Made by a program: the position numbers and the translations under genes | Assembly: GCF_003334815.1 (NCBI RefSeq) | Contig: NZ_QOWO01000026.1 | DNA length: 62,123 nt | Direction: 5' to 3' (one strand) | Origin: Escherichia coli | GTDB taxonomy: Bacteria > Pseudomonadota > Gammaproteobacteria > Enterobacterales > Enterobacteriaceae | The notes under the pieces: model-generated | What the model saw: the letters and a program-made list of their open reading frames with translations, nothing else | Databases searched by the model: none | What the model was told of the DNA's origin: nothing | In this document: one piece after another, positions 34,548 to 46,120 of the stretch | Position numbering within the stretch: position 1 is the first letter of the stretch | How the letters are laid out: every line of letters starts with the position of its first letter

Positions 34548-37418
34548 TTATATTTTTTCCAGCGCAGTGAGTATTTTCTCCGGTGTGAAATGCCATTCGC
34601 GTAACCAGATGCCGCATGCATCGTGAATTGCGGTAGCAATCGCCGGAGCTGCGCCATTTACACCGATTTCCGAGATCGATTTCGCCCCGAACGGGCCGAC
34701 TTTATCGTCGCTCGGCACCAGCACAGCGCGGAAATCACGCGGAATGTCACCAATTTTCGGTGCGCCGTAACTGCGTAAATCACGCGTTAACGGGTGACCT
34801 TCGGCGTCATAAATGATCTCTTCGCTCATACTGTGGCCGATAGCACGCAGGGTGGCACCGTAGATTTGTCCCAACGCTAACTCTGGATTGACCGGTGTAC
34901 CGCAGTCCAGCAAGGCGTAGAATTTATCCAGGCGGATTTCACCCGTACGCGTGTTGACGGCAACTTCAGCGAAGTTTGCGCCATACGGGAAGGCGAAATC
35001 AGGCGTGATATAACTGCCAGTTCCCACCAGTGAACCAAAGCCGGTGCCGGTTTCGCCTTTATGGGCAATATCCCCGAAACTAACTTCGCCTTTCTTGCCG
35101 CGCACGACGCCCGGCGTTGCCAGTTGAACATCTGCCACTGGCTCACCCAACATTTGCGCGCCGTGGAACAGAATTTTCTCCCGTAGATTTTCCGCTGCCA
35201 AACGCGCCGCGTTACCCGAGAAGCAAGTACCGGACGAGGCATATGCGCCTTTATCAAACAACGCATGATCGGTATCACCGGAGATAACATGCACGTCCTG
35301 CGGTGGGCAGTGCAGCACTTCTGCTGCCAGTTTCGTCACTACAGTATCCAGACCAGTACCAATATCCGCACCGCCAGAATGAACGATAAAGGTGCCGTCC
35401 GATTCCAGTTTGATCATGCAGTTAGCCTGATCGATATCCGGGATACCCGATTTCTGCATGATAATGGCGACGCCGCGACCGATGTGCCAGTCACCATTTT
35501 GCGGTTTCGGTGACGACCATTGGATCATCTCGCGACCCTGACGCAGGATCTCTTCCAGTGCACAGCTGGCGGCGGAAGGAACGGAGGTCGGCGCTTTACC
35601 TTCACCGATTGCACCGAGAATTTTCAGCTCTTGCCCTTCGTGTACCCGGTTACGTTCGATAATTTCCAGTTGGTCGATCTGTAACTGTTCAGCCAGTTCC
35701 GCTAATGCCATGGTGATAGCGAAGTTACCTTTCGGTGCGCCATAACCCTGATAAGCACCATTTGGGCAAATGTTGCTGTAGTAGGTGGTGACCTGGAAAT
35801 CGACGTTATCGCACGGATATAACGGCAGCGACAGCGCCGGTCCGTTACACGGTACGGTGAGTGAGTGGTTGCCGTAAGGGCCAGTGTTGGCGCGGAAATC
35901 CATCTTCACTGCCGTCAGGCGACCATCTTTTTTCGCTCCCAGTTTGACGGTGACTTTCGCGACGTGACGAGAGGTGTTAGCAATAAACTCTTCTTCACGG
36001 GTGTAGCGGAACAGTACCGGACGCCCGGTCACGCAGGTTGCCCAGGCGCACACTTCTTCCAGCAGGATGTCCTGTTTGGAACCAAAACCGCCGCCAACTC
36101 GCTCTTTAATGACATGAACTTTATGCTGTTTCATGCCCACGAGGCGCGCGACCTGGCGGCGTAAGTGCCATGGTACCTGGGTGGAGGCGTGGATAACCAG
36201 ACGATCGCCGTCCATACGAGTAAAGCAGATATGTGTTTCAGTCGGGCACTGCTGCGCTTGCGTTGAGTTATAGGTTCGCTCAATGATCACATCGGCATCG
36301 GCAAAGCCTTTGTCCATATCGCCAATATGACCATGAATACTGGCGGCGATATTTTTGCGAGGGCGAGAACCGATCGGGAAGTTGATGATCATATGCTCGC
36401 CGCGCTGGGCTGCATGGCTGTTATCGTCTTCCAGAGTATCTGGCGCACCAGCAACATACACCACCGGTTCATCGTGCACGACAGGCGCATCTTCCGCCAT
36501 TGCTTCGTCGATCGACATTACCGGCTTAAGCACTTCATATTCAACGTCGATGAGCTTCAGTGCTTCGAGCGCAATTTCTTCACTTTCTGCGACGACCGCA
36601 GCAACACGATCGCCGACGTGACGCATTTTCTTGCCGAACATACGGCGGTCAAGCGGTGACGGTTCCGGTGCGCTCTGACCACCCGGGGTATAGTAGATAT
36701 CCGGGCAATTCAGGTGAGTAATAACGTGAACGACGCCCGGTAAGGCTTCAGCTTTGCTGACATCCAGATGAGTAATCAGTGCGTGAGCGTGTGGGCTACG
36801 TAACATTTTAATGACGCAGGCGTCAGCCGTTACGCGGTCTTCAACATAGCAGGGTTTCGCCTGCACCATTTTCGCGGCATCAGTTTTAGGATAATGCTTA
36901 CCAATGACTTCTAGGTCGTCACGGAAAGTCGGAGCGATATCAATGGTGGCCTGCGGATTATTTTTACGTGCAACCGCCAGTTCAATGACCTGATAGTATT
37001 GCTGCCAGCCAGCATCGCGGCTGAACAAACCAGAAAGCGCGTCGTCGATCTCTTCGCGGGTAGGTGCGGCGATGCGATCGAGAAGATCGGTGATAATCAG
37101 AGCTGCAGCTGGATCGTTATAACCAGACTGCACCACGCCAACATCAACCATTGCCTGTTGAACCAGACTTAACTCGTTCCATTTGCCCAGAGATTCTGCG
37201 GTACGAATATCTGCCTTCTCTAACTGTGCGGCAATAAGCAAGGACGCGTTAACGATATTACCGTTAAAGATTATTGCGTCAGAACCGGCAAACCCGAAAC
37301 CATCATCACTGTTGCGTACAGAGTGCATTCCCATGTTAAACAACAGCTTTTGCACGTTTTCGCCTGGATTAACGGTTAGCTCCTGAGGCGCGCCATTTAA
37401 AGTAAAGTGGATGATCAT
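34548..37418 (-). CDS. xdhD: Molybdopterin-containing hydroxylase, fused Fe-S / Mo-binding subunit (xanthine dehydrogenase-like)
   Basis: 956-aa ORF; xanthine dehydrogenase family architecture. Confidence 0.93.
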   Translation of the reverse strand: MIIHFTLNGAPQELTVNPGENVQKLLFNMGMHSVRNSDDGFGFAGSDAIIFNGNIVNASLLIAAQLEKADIRTAESLGKWNELSLVQQAMVDVGVVQSGYNDPAAALIITDLLDRIAAPTREEIDDALSGLFSRDAGWQQYYQVIELAVARKNNPQATIDIAPTFRDDLEVIGKHYPKTDAAKMVQAKPCYVEDRVTADACVIKMLRSPHAHALITHLDVSKAEALPGVVHVITHLNCPDIYYTPGGQSAPEPSPLDRRMFGKKMRHVGDRVAAVVAESEEIALEALKLIDVEYEVLKPVMSIDEAMAEDAPVVHDEPVVYVAGAPDTLEDDNSHAAQRGEHMIINFPIGSRPRKNIAASIHGHIGDMDKGFADADVIIERTYNSTQAQQCPTETHICFTRMDGDRLVIHASTQVPWHLRRQVARLVGMKQHKVHVIKERVGGGFGSKQDILLEEVCAWATCVTGRPVLFRYTREEEFIANTSRHVAKVTVKLGAKKDGRLTAVKMDFRANTGPYGNHSLTVPCNGPALSLPLYPCDNVDFQVTTYYSNICPNGAYQGYGAPKGNFAITMALAELAEQLQIDQLEIIERNRVHEGQELKILGAIGEGKAPTSVPSAASCALEEILRQGREMIQWSSPKPQNGDWHIGRGVAIIMQKSGIPDIDQANCMIKLESDGTFIVHSGGADIGTGLDTVVTKLAAEVLHCPPQDVHVISGDTDHALFDKGAYASSGTCFSGNAARLAAENLREKILFHGAQMLGEPVADVQLATPGVVRGKKGEVSFGDIAHKGETGTGFGSLVGTGSYITPDFAFPYGANFAEVAVNTRTGEIRLDKFYALLDCGTPVNPELALGQIYGATLRAIGHSMSEEIIYDAEGHPLTRDLRSYGAPKIGDIPRDFRAVLVPSDDKVGPFGAKSISEIGVNGAAPAIATAIHDACGIWLREWHFTPEKILTALEKI

Positions 37419-44494: not shown

Positions 44495-46120
44495 ATGAAT
44501 ATTTTCACAGAGGCTGCAAAACTCGAAGAGCAAAATTGTCCGTTTGCTATGGCGCAAATTGTTGATAGCCGAGGCTCGACTCCCCGCCATTCTGCACAAA
44601 TGTTAGTGCGCGCCGATGGTTCTATCGTCGGTACAATTGGTGGCGGAATGGTTGAGCGGAAGGTGATTGAAGAGTCGCTTCAGGCATTGCAGGAACGTAA
44701 GCCGCGATTATTCCATGGACGTATGGCTCGTAACGGTGCGGATGCTGTCGGGTCAGATTGTGGAGGTGCAATGTCAGTATTTATCAGCGCCCATGGTATG
44801 CGTCCACGTCTGGTGTTGATTGGCGCGGGGCATGTCAACCGGGCGATAGCCCAGAGTGCGGCGCTATTAGGATTTGATATTGCCGTTGCTGATATTTATC
44901 GCGAAAGCCTCAATCCTGAACTATTCCCACCATCAACCACGCTTCTCCATGCTGAGTCGTTTGGTGCGGCAGTGGAAGCACTGGATATTCGCCCTGATAA
45001 TTTTGTCCTGATTGCCACGAATAATCAGGATCGTGAAGCCCTCGACAAACTCATTGAACAGCCCATTGCATGGTTGGGGTTGCTGGCAAGTCGTCGCAAG
45101 GTTCAGCTTTTCCTGCGTCAATTGCGTGAGAAAGGCGTGGCTGAAGAACATATTGCCCGTTTACATGCGCCCGTTGGTTACAACATAGGTGCGGAAACGC
45201 CGCAGGAGATCGCCATCAGCGTGCTGGCAGAAATATTACAGGTGAAAAATAACGCGCCGGGTGGGCTGATGATGAAACCTTCTCATCCTTCCGGACACCA
45301 GCTGGTGGTGATTCGCGGTGCGGGAGATATCGCCAGTGGTGTGGCGCTACGTCTGTATCATGCGGGTTTTAAAGTGATCATGCTGGAAGTGGAAAAACCG
45401 ACAGTGATTCGTTGTACCGTGGCGTTTGCCCAGGCCGTGTTCGATGGCGAAATGACGGTCGAAGGCGTCACTGCTCGCCTGGCAACCAGCTCTGCGGAAG
45501 CGATGAAACTTACCGAACGCGGATTCATTCCTGTGATGGTAGATCCCGCCTGTTCATTGCTTGATGAACTGAAACCGCTTTGCGTGGTGGACGCTATTCT
45601 GGCGAAACAGAATTTGGGAACGCGGGCAGATATGGCACCAGTAACAATCGCGCTTGGGCCGGGCTTTACTGCTGGGAAGGATTGTCATGCGGTAATTGAA
45701 ACAAATCGCGGGCACTGGCTCGGTCAGGTGATTTACTCTGGTTGTGCGCAGGAGAATACCGGTGTTCCTGGCAATATTATGGGGCATACCACCCGACGGG
45801 TGATCCGTGCTCCTGCTGCAGGCATTATGCGATCCAACGTGAAATTAGGCGATCTGGTGAAAGAGGGCGATGTGATTGCCTGGATTGGTGAGCATGAAAT
45901 TAAAGCACCGTTGACGGGGATGGTGCGTGGCTTGTTGAACGACGGCCTGGCAGTGGTTGGTGGTTTTAAAATTGGTGATATCGATCCTCGTGGTGAAACC
46001 GCTGATTTCACCAGCGTTTCTGATAAAGCCCGGGCGATTGGCGGCGGCGTACTTGAGGCGTTAATGATGTTGATGCATCAGGGCGTGAAAGCGACAAAAG
46101 AAGTGCTGGAAGTGGCTTAA
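44495..46120 (+). CDS. yqeB: XdhC/CoxI-family molybdenum hydroxylase accessory protein
   Basis: 541-aa ORF; Rossmann-like GAGHVNRAIA and GAGDIASGVA. Confidence 0.92.
   Translation: MNIFTEAAKLEEQNCPFAMAQIVDSRGSTPRHSAQMLVRADGSIVGTIGGGMVERKVIEESLQALQERKPRLFHGRMARNGADAVGSDCGGAMSVFISAHGMRPRLVLIGAGHVNRAIAQSAALLGFDIAVADIYRESLNPELFPPSTTLLHAESFGAAVEALDIRPDNFVLIATNNQDREALDKLIEQPIAWLGLLASRRKVQLFLRQLREKGVAEEHIARLHAPVGYNIGAETPQEIAISVLAEILQVKNNAPGGLMMKPSHPSGHQLVVIRGAGDIASGVALRLYHAGFKVIMLEVEKPTVIRCTVAFAQAVFDGEMTVEGVTARLATSSAEAMKLTERGFIPVMVDPACSLLDELKPLCVVDAILAKQNLGTRADMAPVTIALGPGFTAGKDCHAVIETNRGHWLGQVIYSGCAQENTGVPGNIMGHTTRRVIRAPAAGIMRSNVKLGDLVKEGDVIAWIGEHEIKAPLTGMVRGLLNDGLAVVGGFKIGDIDPRGETADFTSVSDKARAIGGGVLEALMMLMHQGVKATKEVLEVA

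What the first reader, a model, noticed from the sequence alone, without database searches (positions are those of the whole stretch)
34548..46120. Selenium-dependent molybdenum hydroxylase gene set (xdhD-ygfM-ssnA-ygfK, mocA, yqeB, yqeC)
The window holds a complete set of markers that co-occur in selenium-dependent molybdenum hydroxylase loci: a fused Mo/Fe-S hydroxylase (xdhD), an FAD subunit (ygfM), a large Fe-S flavoprotein (ygfK), an amidohydrolase (ssnA), a Mo-cofactor cytidylyltransferase (mocA), and the YqeB and YqeC accessory proteins. They sit next to three purine transporters (uacT, xanQ, ghxQ) and guaD. The substrate and the role of selenium are, to my knowledge, only partly resolved.
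Basis: established knowledge. Interest (0 to 1): 0.45.

Follow-up and report, generated by a model that had tools for sequence, protein, structure and literature searches.

The report
E. coli anaerobic uric-acid breakdown genes
This is the well-known E. coli gene block that starts anaerobic uric-acid breakdown and matures its molybdenum cofactor; its chemistry was solved in 2025, and only the role of selenium in E. coli remains untested.

Summary
All seven genes are present at the stated coordinates, and each passes its curated NCBIfam cut-off. The window is E. coli chromosome. At least 80% of the block is present in 5151 of 5426 complete genomes, and Aeromonas and Morganella keep the same gene order.

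Two 2025 studies showed that XdhD-YgfM reduces uric acid to 2,8-dioxopurine. YgfK plus SsnA then reduce and open the ring. [quoted passage not shown]

Selenium dependence was shown only for the Clostridium sporogenes counterpart, through selD. I found no test of it for E. coli XdhD.

New here:
- YqeC models as a SIMIBI-class P-loop NTPase with an invariant cysteine (HEPCI motif).
- YqeB is an XdhC-type chaperone fused to a Rossmann-like domain plus a biotinyl-like barrel, with no invariant cysteine.
- A palindrome (ATTATCA-N3-TGATA) lies upstream of the locus's sigma-54 promoters and is conserved across genera. It is a candidate binding site for YgeV.

Verdict: already known, low interest. The accessory proteins and the regulation remain a small open question.

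The parts
34548..37418 (-). xdhD: fused 2x[2Fe-2S] plus molybdopterin subunit. It reduces uric acid to 2,8-dioxopurine.
   Evidence: ORF. TIGR03313 scores 2123 bits against a cut-off of 1102, and residues 3-150 match Fe-S subunit models. RefSeq names it xdhD. It is 30% identical to the in-window XdhA, and Glu917 aligns with the Glu of XdhA's GHKSLGE motif. The activity was shown for E. coli XdhD (Q46814) in PMC12507026.
37415..38194 (-). ygfM: FAD-binding subunit that takes electrons from NADH. It overlaps xdhD by 4 nt.
   Evidence: TIGR03312 scores 490 bits against a cut-off of 242. A protein of about 30 kDa, putatively YgfM, co-purifies with XdhD (PMC12507026).
38245..39573 (-). ssnA: amidohydrolase that opens the reduced pyrimidine ring, giving ureidomethyl-hydantoin.
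   Evidence: TIGR03314 scores 738 bits against a cut-off of 456. The coupled YgfK+SsnA assay is in PMC12507026.
39576..42674 (-). ygfK: Fe-S flavoprotein, the NAD(P)H:2,8-dioxopurine oxidoreductase. The RefSeq name 'putative selenate reductase subunit' is outdated.
   Evidence: TIGR03315 scores 1779 bits against a cut-off of 835. Selenate was neither required nor stimulatory (preprint 10.1101/2025.04.24.650524).
42747..42762 (-). Sigma-54 (-24/-12) promoter of the ygfK-ssnA-ygfM-xdhD operon.
   Evidence: TGGTGCGATTGTTGCT found. It is the ChIP-seq site listed for ygfK in PMC4591121. The element TGG-N5-ATTGTTGC is invariant in four genera.
42932..42944 (.). Perfect palindrome TATCATTATGATA about 180 nt upstream of the ygfK sigma-54 promoter. 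Candidate enhancer site for YgeV (inferred).
   Evidence: The pattern TMTCANNNTGAKA occurs 5 times in the window against 0.22 expected; 0 of 100 shuffles reach 5. ATTATCA-N3-TGATA is invariant in E. coli, K. aerogenes, Morganella and Aeromonas.
42996..43574 (-). mocA (ygfJ): molybdenum-cofactor cytidylyltransferase, which makes the cytosine-dinucleotide form of the cofactor used by this enzyme family.
   Evidence: TIGR03310 scores 214 bits against a cut-off of 186. RefSeq annotation. The biochemical role is established knowledge (Neumann et al. 2009), not re-tested here.
43677..44447 (+). yqeC: SIMIBI-class P-loop NTPase with an invariant Cys139. Presumed accessory factor for cofactor maturation.
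44078..44094 (+). Intragenic sigma-54 promoter for yqeB, embedded in the codons of YqeC's invariant HEPCI motif.
   Evidence: Exact match to the validated site of PMC4591121. It overlaps codons 135-140, and the synonymous positions in GAA CCT TGC are identical in four genera.
44322..44334 (.). Second copy of the palindrome (TCTCAATGTGAGA), inside yqeC and about 170 nt upstream of the yqeB start codon.
   Evidence: It sits at the orthologous position in K. aerogenes and Morganella, where codons TCT CAA nnn GAG AAT are identical. Conservation of the protein motif SQxEN is a confounder.
44495..46120 (+). yqeB: XdhC-type cofactor chaperone (residues 12-247) fused to the selenium-marker domain (residues 271-526).
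   Evidence: TIGR03309 scores 417 bits against a cut-off of 220. PF02625 and PF13478 match the N-terminal half. PDB relatives of that half are 2we7 and 3on5. The C-terminal domain model has pLDDT 89.7: a Rossmann-like part plus a biotinyl-like barrel, with no whole-domain match in the PDB. That domain has no invariant Cys.
34523..34538 (.). GC-rich hairpin 10 nt downstream of the xdhD stop codon. Possible operon end or attenuator before xanQ.
   Evidence: Consensus scan only. The T-run on the minus strand is weak.
46341..52469 (-). Lower half of the pathway: yqeA/arcC 46341-47273, hyuA 47321-48706, ygeY 48759-49970, ygeX/dpaL 50028-51224, ygeW 51282-52469.
   Evidence: RefSeq annotation. NCBIfam models pass: TIGR00746, TIGR02033, TIGR03526, TIGR03528, TIGR03316/NF005538. 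The E. coli enzymes were used in the in-vitro reconstitution.
52563..52578 (-). Sigma-54 promoter of ygeW. The palindrome TCTCATATTGATA lies at 52780-52792, about 200 nt upstream.
   Evidence: The site is listed in PMC4591121. K. aerogenes has both elements at orthologous positions.
52948..54726 (+). ygeV: sigma-54 enhancer-binding activator, the presumed regulator of the locus.
   Evidence: RefSeq annotation. The sigma-54 activator core matches NtrC/PrdR-type models only below their equivalog cut-offs. [quoted passage not shown]
25919..30210 (.). uacT (urate/H+ symporter, 25919-27367, -), ygfT (27803-29722, +) and ygfS (29722-30210, +). A sigma-54 site lies at 27740-27756 and the palindrome at 27562-27574.
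   Evidence: NF009451 scores 1506 bits against a cut-off of 1154 for YgfT.
54766..58500 (-). xdhCBA: conventional xanthine dehydrogenase that feeds urate into the pathway. Its sigma-54 site is at 58484-58500.
   Evidence: A variant of the palindrome (CTCATATTGATACGTATCA) lies about 100 nt upstream of the promoter.

Best explanation
The interval encodes the entry steps of the reductive uric-acid (2,8-dioxopurine) pathway, together with the genes that mature its molybdenum cofactor.

Shown by published biochemistry on E. coli proteins:
- XdhD-YgfM takes electrons from NADH and removes the C6 oxygen of uric acid, giving 2,8-dioxopurine. This is a xanthine-dehydrogenase-type enzyme running in reverse.
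- YgfK reduces 2,8-dioxopurine with NAD(P)H, and SsnA opens the ring to ureidomethyl-hydantoin.
- The adjacent operon (HyuA, YgeW with YqeA, YgeY, YgeX) converts that product to pyruvate and ammonia. According to the two papers, YgeW releases carbamoyl phosphate, which supports ATP generation (YqeA is a carbamate kinase).

Established knowledge: MocA makes the cytosine-dinucleotide form of the cofactor.

Inferred: the XdhC-like half of YqeB holds the finished cofactor. Its marker domain and the NTPase YqeC, using SelD-made selenophosphate, exchange the terminal sulfur on molybdenum for selenium before the cofactor is inserted into XdhD.

Partly shown: transcription runs from sigma-54 promoters. 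I infer that these are activated by YgeV bound at a conserved palindrome.
For: Gene identities.

Biochemistry on E. coli proteins: XdhD-YgfM, YgfK+SsnA and the downstream enzymes in PMC12507026. E. coli YgfK, SsnA, HyuA, YgeW, YgeY, YgeX and YqeA were used in the full reconstitution in preprint 10.1101/2025.04.24.650524. An independent summary is PMC12990295. Deletion of ygeW, ygeX, ygeY, hyuA, ygfK or ssnA blocks conversion of urate to acetate in E. coli.

Selenium link:
- The C. sporogenes enzyme is inactive when purified from a selD mutant.
- C. difficile needs selD and yqeB for growth on urate and xanthine.
- The YqeB marker domain is 55-60% identical across phyla. It is found fused to XdhC domains, and once to a MocA-type transferase domain.
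- YqeC has the fold of the metallocentre-assembly NTPase class, plus an invariant Cys.

Regulation:
- All five published sigma-54 sites are present.
- The yqeC-internal promoter is required for YqeB expression.
- The palindrome is enriched in the window and conserved in position across genera.
- The operons it precedes are those of the YgeV iModulon.
Against: No experiment in the searched library tests selenium, selD, yqeB, yqeC or mocA for E. coli XdhD. The E. coli enzyme was active after purification from ordinary cultures with no selenium variable, at 10 uM enzyme in end-point assays.

Johnstone & Self (2024) doubted that E. coli makes selenium-dependent hydroxylases. Deleting yqeC gave no phenotype in C. 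difficile.

The YqeB marker domain has no invariant cysteine and no whole-domain structural relative, so its chemistry cannot be read from the fold.

The Klebsiella aerogenes locus keeps mocA, yqeC and yqeB but has no xdhD-ygfM or xdhABC nearby. The client enzyme is therefore not always adjacent.

The YgeV-palindrome link is only positional. The two papers also disagree on which ureido group YgeW removes.
Confidence: 0.85

Rival explanations
1. E. coli XdhD works with an ordinary sulfido molybdenum cofactor. YqeB acts only as an XdhC-type insertion chaperone, YqeC as a generic helper, and selenium is not needed in E. coli.
For: Active XdhD-YgfM was obtained with no attention to selenium. XdhD fails the selenium-dependent XDH model TIGR03311 (300 bits against a cut-off of 830). 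Johnstone & Self doubted that E. coli makes such enzymes. No active-site residues distinguish selenium-using from sulfur-using enzymes. The N-terminal half of YqeB is a bona fide XdhC homologue.
Against: The YqeB marker domain is restricted to selD-positive genomes and is extremely conserved. The functional counterpart in C. sporogenes is inactive without SelD. All gut strains in the Dodd-laboratory library that carry the urate cluster also carry YqeB/C and SelD. Rich media contain trace selenium, so activity after ordinary purification decides nothing.
Confidence: 0.3
2. YgfK-YgfM-XdhD is a selenate reductase, as the current RefSeq name of YgfK and the 2002 genetic study imply.
For: RefSeq names YgfK 'putative selenate reductase subunit', and the NCBIfam models are called Se_sel_red_*. 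Haft & Self cite Bebien et al. 2002 for a selenate-reduction phenotype of this region.
Against: Selenate was neither required for nor stimulated YgfK activity. The enzymes have defined purine substrates. XdhD belongs to the xanthine-dehydrogenase family, not to the DMSO-reductase family to which characterised selenate reductases belong (the family placement of those reductases is my own knowledge).
Confidence: 0.03
3. XdhD is an oxidative purine hydroxylase (hypoxanthine or xanthine to urate) that serves purine salvage, redundant with XdhABC.
For: It is 30% identical to XdhA, and Glu917 aligns with the Glu of XdhA's GHKSLGE motif. It sits next to xanQ, guaD and ghxQ.
Against: The purified enzyme reduces urate to 2,8-dioxopurine, not xanthine. 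The clostridial counterpart interconverts only urate and 2,8-dioxopurine. XdhD scores below the cut-off for all XdhA equivalog models.
Confidence: 0.05

Closest known systems
Reductive uric-acid / 2,8-dioxopurine pathway cluster of E. coli K-12 (Li et al. 2025, Life Metab; Liu et al. 2025, Nat Microbiol)
   Same: It is the same locus. The gene order is identical and the sequences are near-identical. XdhD-YgfM, YgfK, SsnA and the flanking HyuA, YgeW, YqeA, YgeY, YgeX, UacT and YgeV are all present.
   Different: Nothing of substance differs. This strain differs from FORC 064 by 7 SNPs between window positions 15548 and 59750. The E. coli study (Li et al.) did not address mocA, yqeB or yqeC; Liu et al. 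used YqeB/YqeC only as comparative-genomic markers.
Selenium-dependent molybdenum hydroxylase accessory set (Haft & Self 2008; TIGR03309, TIGR03172, TIGR03310)
   Same: YqeB, YqeC and MocA/YgfJ all pass the family cut-offs. This very E. coli region was used to define the set.
   Different: Selenium in the E. coli enzyme has never been demonstrated. E. coli YqeB carries an extra XdhC-like half that stand-alone (EF2563-type) members of about 265-300 aa lack.
Clostridium sporogenes 2,8-dioxopurine dehydrogenase (XdhAC)
   Same: It catalyses the same reaction, urate to 2,8-dioxopurine, and is a molybdenum hydroxylase encoded in the same type of cluster.
   Different: The clostridial enzyme has no FAD domain or subunit, does not use NAD(H), and its physiological electron donor is unknown. 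E. coli XdhD pairs with YgfM and uses NADH. SelD dependence is shown only for the clostridial enzyme.
4-hydroxybenzoyl-CoA reductase alpha subunit (PDB 1rm6), the closest solved relative of XdhD by sequence
   Same: It belongs to the same Mo-hydroxylase fold family (E 3.7e-80 over residues 355-953). It also works physiologically in the reductive, dehydroxylating direction (established knowledge).
   Different: Its substrate is different (an aryl-CoA), and so are its subunit organisation and electron donor. No XdhD structure has been solved.
SIMIBI-class metallocentre-assembly NTPases (UreG, HypB, CooC) and SRP/FtsY GTPases, the closest folds to YqeC
   Different: Sequence identity is only 10-18%. 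YqeC has its own invariant motifs (TTTT, HEPCI with Cys139). No nucleotide or metal binding has been tested.
XdhC / PaoD molybdenum-cofactor insertion chaperones, the closest relatives of the YqeB N-terminal half
   Same: The PF02625 and PF13478 domains are present, with PDB relatives 2we7 and 3on5.
   Different: YqeB adds a 270-residue Rossmann-like plus barrel module, found only in selD-positive genomes. That module shows no detectable relation to the XdhC Rossmann domain (hhalign probability 2.5%).

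Membership tests
Reductive uric-acid (2,8-dioxopurine) pathway cluster | XdhD-type fused Fe-S/molybdopterin subunit with a YgfM FAD subunit | tested here: met
   TIGR03313 scores 2123 bits against a cut-off of 1102, and TIGR03312 scores 490 against 242. The two genes overlap by 4 nt.
Reductive uric-acid (2,8-dioxopurine) pathway cluster | YgfK reductase and SsnA amidohydrolase, adjacent to each other | tested here: met
   TIGR03315 scores 1779 bits against 835, and TIGR03314 scores 738 against 456. The genes are 2 nt apart.
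Reductive uric-acid (2,8-dioxopurine) pathway cluster | [quoted passage not shown] | tested here: met
   All are present at 46341-52469 and pass their NCBIfam cut-offs.
Reductive uric-acid (2,8-dioxopurine) pathway cluster | Conversion of urate to 2,8-dioxopurine by the gene product | not testable with these tools
   Published for E. coli XdhD Q46814 (PMC12507026).
Selenium-dependent molybdenum hydroxylase system | YqeB (TIGR03309) and YqeC (TIGR03172) marker proteins | tested here: met
   417 bits against a cut-off of 220, and 241 against 73.
Selenium-dependent molybdenum hydroxylase system | Selenophosphate synthetase SelD in the same genome | not testable with these tools
   selD is not in the window. 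E. coli K-12 selD (b1764) is listed in PMC2276186 and was used as a query.
Selenium-dependent molybdenum hydroxylase system | Labile selenium in the enzyme, required for activity | not testable with these tools
   Shown only for the C. sporogenes counterpart. No E. coli data were found.
Selenium-dependent xanthine dehydrogenase (TIGR03311, EF2570 type) | Score above the equivalog cut-off | tested here: not met
   300 bits against a cut-off of 830. XdhD belongs to the separate family TIGR03313.
Selenate reductase | Selenate as substrate or requirement; catalytic subunit of the DMSO-reductase family | tested here: not met
   XdhD is in the xanthine-dehydrogenase family by every model and every solved relative. 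Selenate has no effect on YgfK. The family placement of known selenate reductases is my own knowledge.
SIMIBI-class P-loop NTPases (YqeC) | Walker A motif and SIMIBI fold | tested here: met
SIMIBI-class P-loop NTPases (YqeC) | NTP binding and hydrolysis | not testable with these tools
   No biochemical data were found.
XdhC-type cofactor chaperones (YqeB N-terminal half) | XdhC_CoxI plus XdhC_C domains | tested here: met
   PF02625 at E 9.8e-20 and PF13478 at E 1.2e-32. TIGR02964 reaches 110.8 bits, below its cut-off of 161.6.
Biotinyl/lipoyl carrier domains (YqeB C-terminal barrel) | Conserved modifiable lysine at the hairpin tip | tested here: not met

The most novel reading that the evidence does not exclude
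E. coli XdhD is a true selenium enzyme, and this locus holds the whole insertion machinery in a genetically tractable host.

- YqeC would be an NTP-driven SIMIBI chaperone whose invariant Cys139 relays selenium, or grips the cofactor.
- The XdhC half of YqeB would hold the cytosine-dinucleotide cofactor while its Rossmann-plus-barrel module performs the sulfur-to-selenium exchange.
- Expression of yqeB would be tied to the pathway through a sigma-54 promoter written into the HEPCI codons of yqeC, and through a conserved palindrome bound by YgeV.

If so, E. coli would become the model for the least understood route of biological selenium use.
Probability: 0.4. Interest if true: 0.5.

Novelty: already known. 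Interest (0 to 1): 0.2.

Why it matters
The locus matters biologically. It lets gut bacteria consume host-secreted urate, is being engineered into probiotics against gout, and represents the least understood way that cells use selenium. All of this is already published, including for E. coli itself.

What remains open, and is directly testable in E. coli:
- whether XdhD really contains selenium;
- what YqeB and YqeC do chemically;
- how YgeV recognises the locus.

The fold assignments and the conserved palindrome reported here give concrete starting points: a YqeC C139A mutant, Walker A mutants, and palindrome mutants.

Tried and rejected
- My first sigma-54 pattern used the wrong spacer (N6) and found nothing. 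With N5 it recovered the ygfK and ygeW promoters.
- I tested whether the Rossmann-like part of the YqeB marker domain is a duplicated XdhC_C domain. hhalign gave a probability of 2.5%, so I rejected the idea.
- I considered YqeB's barrel as a true biotin/lipoyl carrier and rejected it, because no lysine is conserved there.
- A generic inverted-repeat search of the four promoter regions caught only part of the shared motif. Comparing k-mers between the regions found it.
- From my own knowledge of their consensus sequences, the palindrome does not resemble a CRP, FNR or PurR site. A separate CRP-like TGTGA-N6-CACA element lies nearer the ygeW promoter, in line with the Crp site mentioned by Li et al..
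- One contig look-up failed because I included the stop codon on the wrong side; I repeated it correctly.
- I ran no further search on selD co-occurrence, because that analysis is already published.

Full report
**1. Observation**

The window is E. coli chromosome. The stated interval is 100.0% identical by megablast to several complete genomes. At least 80% of it is present in 5151 of 5426 complete E. coli genomes. Against strain FORC 064 the window shows 7 single-base differences between positions 15548 and 59750, two of them inside the interval.

ORFs lie at exactly the stated coordinates, and RefSeq annotates them as xdhD, ygfM, ssnA, ygfK, mocA, yqeC and yqeB. Each product passes the curated cut-off of its own NCBIfam model: TIGR03313, 03312, 03314, 03315, 03310, 03172 and 03309.

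The seven-gene block has the same order and orientation in Aeromonas and Morganella.

**2. What it is**

This region was used in 2008 to define the selenium-dependent molybdenum hydroxylase marker set. Haft & Self listed xdhA through ygfO, with yqeB, yqeC and ygfJ as accessory proteins.

Since then the chemistry has been solved.

- Li et al. 2025 purified E. coli XdhD together with a co-purifying protein of about 30 kDa, putatively YgfM. With NADH it reduces uric acid to 2,8-dioxopurine ('yanthine'). They also showed that YgfK plus SsnA with NAD(P)H convert this to ureidomethyl-hydantoin, and that HyuA, YgeW, YgeY and YgeX carry it on to pyruvate.
- Liu et al. 2025 (Nat Microbiol; preprint read here) reached the same pathway independently from C. 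sporogenes genetics and isotope tracing. [quoted passage not shown]
- A commentary summarises both studies and lists the open points.
- Earlier work showed that deleting ygeW, ygeX, ygeY, hyuA, ygfK or ssnA in E. coli blocks conversion of urate to acetate.

The stated interval is therefore the upper half of a larger unit. The lower half (yqeA/arcC, hyuA, ygeY, ygeX/dpaL, ygeW) is at 46341-52469 and the regulator ygeV at 52948-54726. xdhCBA is at 54766-58428, and uacT, ygfT and ygfS are at 25919-30210.

**3. Selenium**

The title's 'selenium-dependent' is an inference for E. coli.

- The C. sporogenes enzyme that performs the same reaction is inactive when purified from a selD mutant. That organism needs both Se and Mo to consume urate.
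- C. difficile needs selD and yqeB, but not clearly yqeC, for growth on urate and xanthine.
- The E. coli paper does not mention yqeB, yqeC or mocA, and names selenium only in a reference title. XdhD was purified from ordinary overnight cultures. A targeted literature search found no E. coli test.
- Johnstone & Self wrote that E. coli 'likely does not make SDMHs'.
- XdhD scores 300 bits against the selenium-dependent XDH model, whose cut-off is 830.
- Liu et al. found no active-site residues that distinguish selenium from sulfur enzymes. Sequence alone therefore cannot settle the question.
- YgfK's RefSeq name, 'putative selenate reductase subunit', is outdated. Selenate neither was required for nor stimulated its activity.

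**4. Accessory proteins (new analysis here)**

*YqeC.* It matches only its own Pfam family and has no sequence relative in the PDB.

- An alignment of 31 homologues shows an invariant Walker A motif G27AGGKTS33, a TTTT strand, E121ADG124, and an invariant H136EPCI140 containing Cys139.
- This class includes many NTP-driven metallocentre-assembly factors.

*YqeB.* It is a fusion protein.

- Residues 12-247 are an XdhC-type cofactor chaperone. Pfam finds PF02625 and PF13478, and the PDB relatives are 2we7 and 3on5.
- Residues 271-526 are the marker domain TIGR03309. That domain is 55-60% identical across phyla. It occurs alone (about 265-300 aa), fused to XdhC domains, and once fused to a MocA-type nucleotidyltransferase domain.
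- Its invariant motifs are GAGD, ETNRGH, DIDPRG and SDKA, and it has no invariant cysteine.
- The barrel lacks a conserved lysine, so it is not a true carrier domain. The Rossmann part shows no detectable relation to the protein's own XdhC_C domain.

These results fit a model in which YqeB holds the cofactor and modifies it with help from YqeC. They do not prove it.

**5. Regulation**

All five sigma-54 sites mapped by Bonocora et al. 2015 are present:

- ygfK, 42747-42762;
- ygeW, 52563-52578;
- xdhA, 58484-58500;
- ygfT, 27740-27756;
- an intragenic site in yqeC, 44078-44094, which they showed is the promoter required for YqeB expression.

I noticed that this intragenic promoter is written into the codons of YqeC's invariant HEPCI motif. 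The synonymous positions of GAA CCT TGC are identical in E. coli, Klebsiella, Morganella and Aeromonas, while the neighbouring proline codons vary freely.

I also found a palindrome, T(A/C)TCA-N3-TGA(G/T)A.

- It occurs 5 times in the window against 0.22 expected.
- Three copies lie 180-215 nt upstream of the ygfK, ygeW and ygfT sigma-54 promoters. One lies in yqeC and one in ygeX.
- xdhA has a close variant of the motif.
- K. aerogenes has the motif at all four orthologous positions, and Morganella and Aeromonas have it upstream of ygfK.
- An alignment of the ygfK upstream regions shows ATTATCA-N3-TGATA and TGG-N5-ATTGTTGC as invariant islands in otherwise diverged sequence.

The operons preceded by this motif are those of the 'YgeV iModulon'. 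No YgeV binding motif appears in the papers I read. I therefore propose it as the YgeV enhancer site, which is an inference.

**6. Comparison and verdict**

This is the published E. coli locus itself, so there is no novelty in the finding as stated. The closest solved relative of XdhD is 4-hydroxybenzoyl-CoA reductase, another member of the family that runs in the reductive direction. XdhD is 30% identical to XdhA, and Glu917 aligns with the Glu of XdhA's GHKSLGE motif.

Rival readings have little support. These are a selenate reductase, an oxidative purine hydroxylase, and a sulfur-only enzyme with YqeB acting as a plain chaperone. Only the last remains a serious possibility (about 0.3), because selenium in E. 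coli XdhD is untested.

Interest is low for the finding itself. The residual value lies in the accessory-protein mechanism and the regulatory motif.

Noticed in passing
window 27562-27574, 42932-42944, 44322-44334, 50936-50948, 52780-52792; variant at about 58591-58609: The palindrome T(A/C)TCA-N3-TGA(G/T)A occurs 5 times against 0.22 expected. It lies 180-215 nt upstream of the ygfT, ygfK and ygeW sigma-54 promoters. It sits at orthologous positions in Klebsiella, Morganella and Aeromonas. It is a candidate YgeV enhancer site, and I found no published motif for YgeV.
   Followed up: partly
window 44078-44094 (inside yqeC): The validated intragenic sigma-54 promoter for yqeB overlaps the codons of YqeC's invariant HEPCI motif. 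The synonymous sites in GAA CCT TGC are identical in four genera while flanking proline codons vary, which suggests selection on both the protein and the DNA.
   Followed up: partly
L002 4082-9966 and L005 5807-9515 (Klebsiella aerogenes): The Klebsiella locus keeps ygeV, ygeWXY-hyuA-yqeA, yqeB, yqeC, mocA, ygfK-ssnA, ygfST and uacT. It has no xdhD-ygfM after ssnA and no xdhABC beyond ygeV. The molybdenum enzyme served by its accessory genes is therefore not in the locus.
   Followed up: partly
window 39576-42674: RefSeq and NCBIfam still name YgfK 'putative selenate reductase subunit'. Published assays show it is an NAD(P)H:2,8-dioxopurine reductase on which selenate has no effect.
   Followed up: yes
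window 59677-61511: The window diverges from FORC 064 immediately after a tRNA-Gly (59677-59747). A 548-aa ORF (59865-61511) matches a 'site-specific integrase'. Only 3 of 5426 complete E. coli genomes cover 80% or more of this stretch. It is probably a rare island integrated at the tRNA in place of the usual ygeQ/ETT2 remnant.
   Followed up: partly
window 2568-2751(-), 1769-1919(-), 16262-16339(-): Rfam gathering-threshold matches to 6S RNA (ssrS), a Sib antitoxin RNA and naRNA4. These are ordinary E. coli features.
   Followed up: no
window about 22452-23550 (+): prfB, with its programmed +1 frameshift, is annotated as a two-piece CDS in the matching RefSeq record.
   Followed up: no
protein P0231: One homologue of 462 aa fuses the YqeB marker domain to a PF12804 (MocA-type nucleotidyltransferase) domain. 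This domain fusion links the marker domain to formation of the cytosine-dinucleotide cofactor.
   Followed up: no
window 39573-39639: The ssnA reading frame stays open upstream to a GTG at 39639, overlapping the 3' end of ygfK. RefSeq starts ssnA at 39573, and the NCBIfam model aligns from residue 1-2 of that shorter form, so the RefSeq start is the better supported.
   Followed up: partly
window 34548-37418: By sequence, XdhD's best solved relative is 4-hydroxybenzoyl-CoA reductase (1rm6, E 3.7e-80) rather than any xanthine dehydrogenase. Both enzymes work in the reductive, dehydroxylating direction.
   Followed up: no
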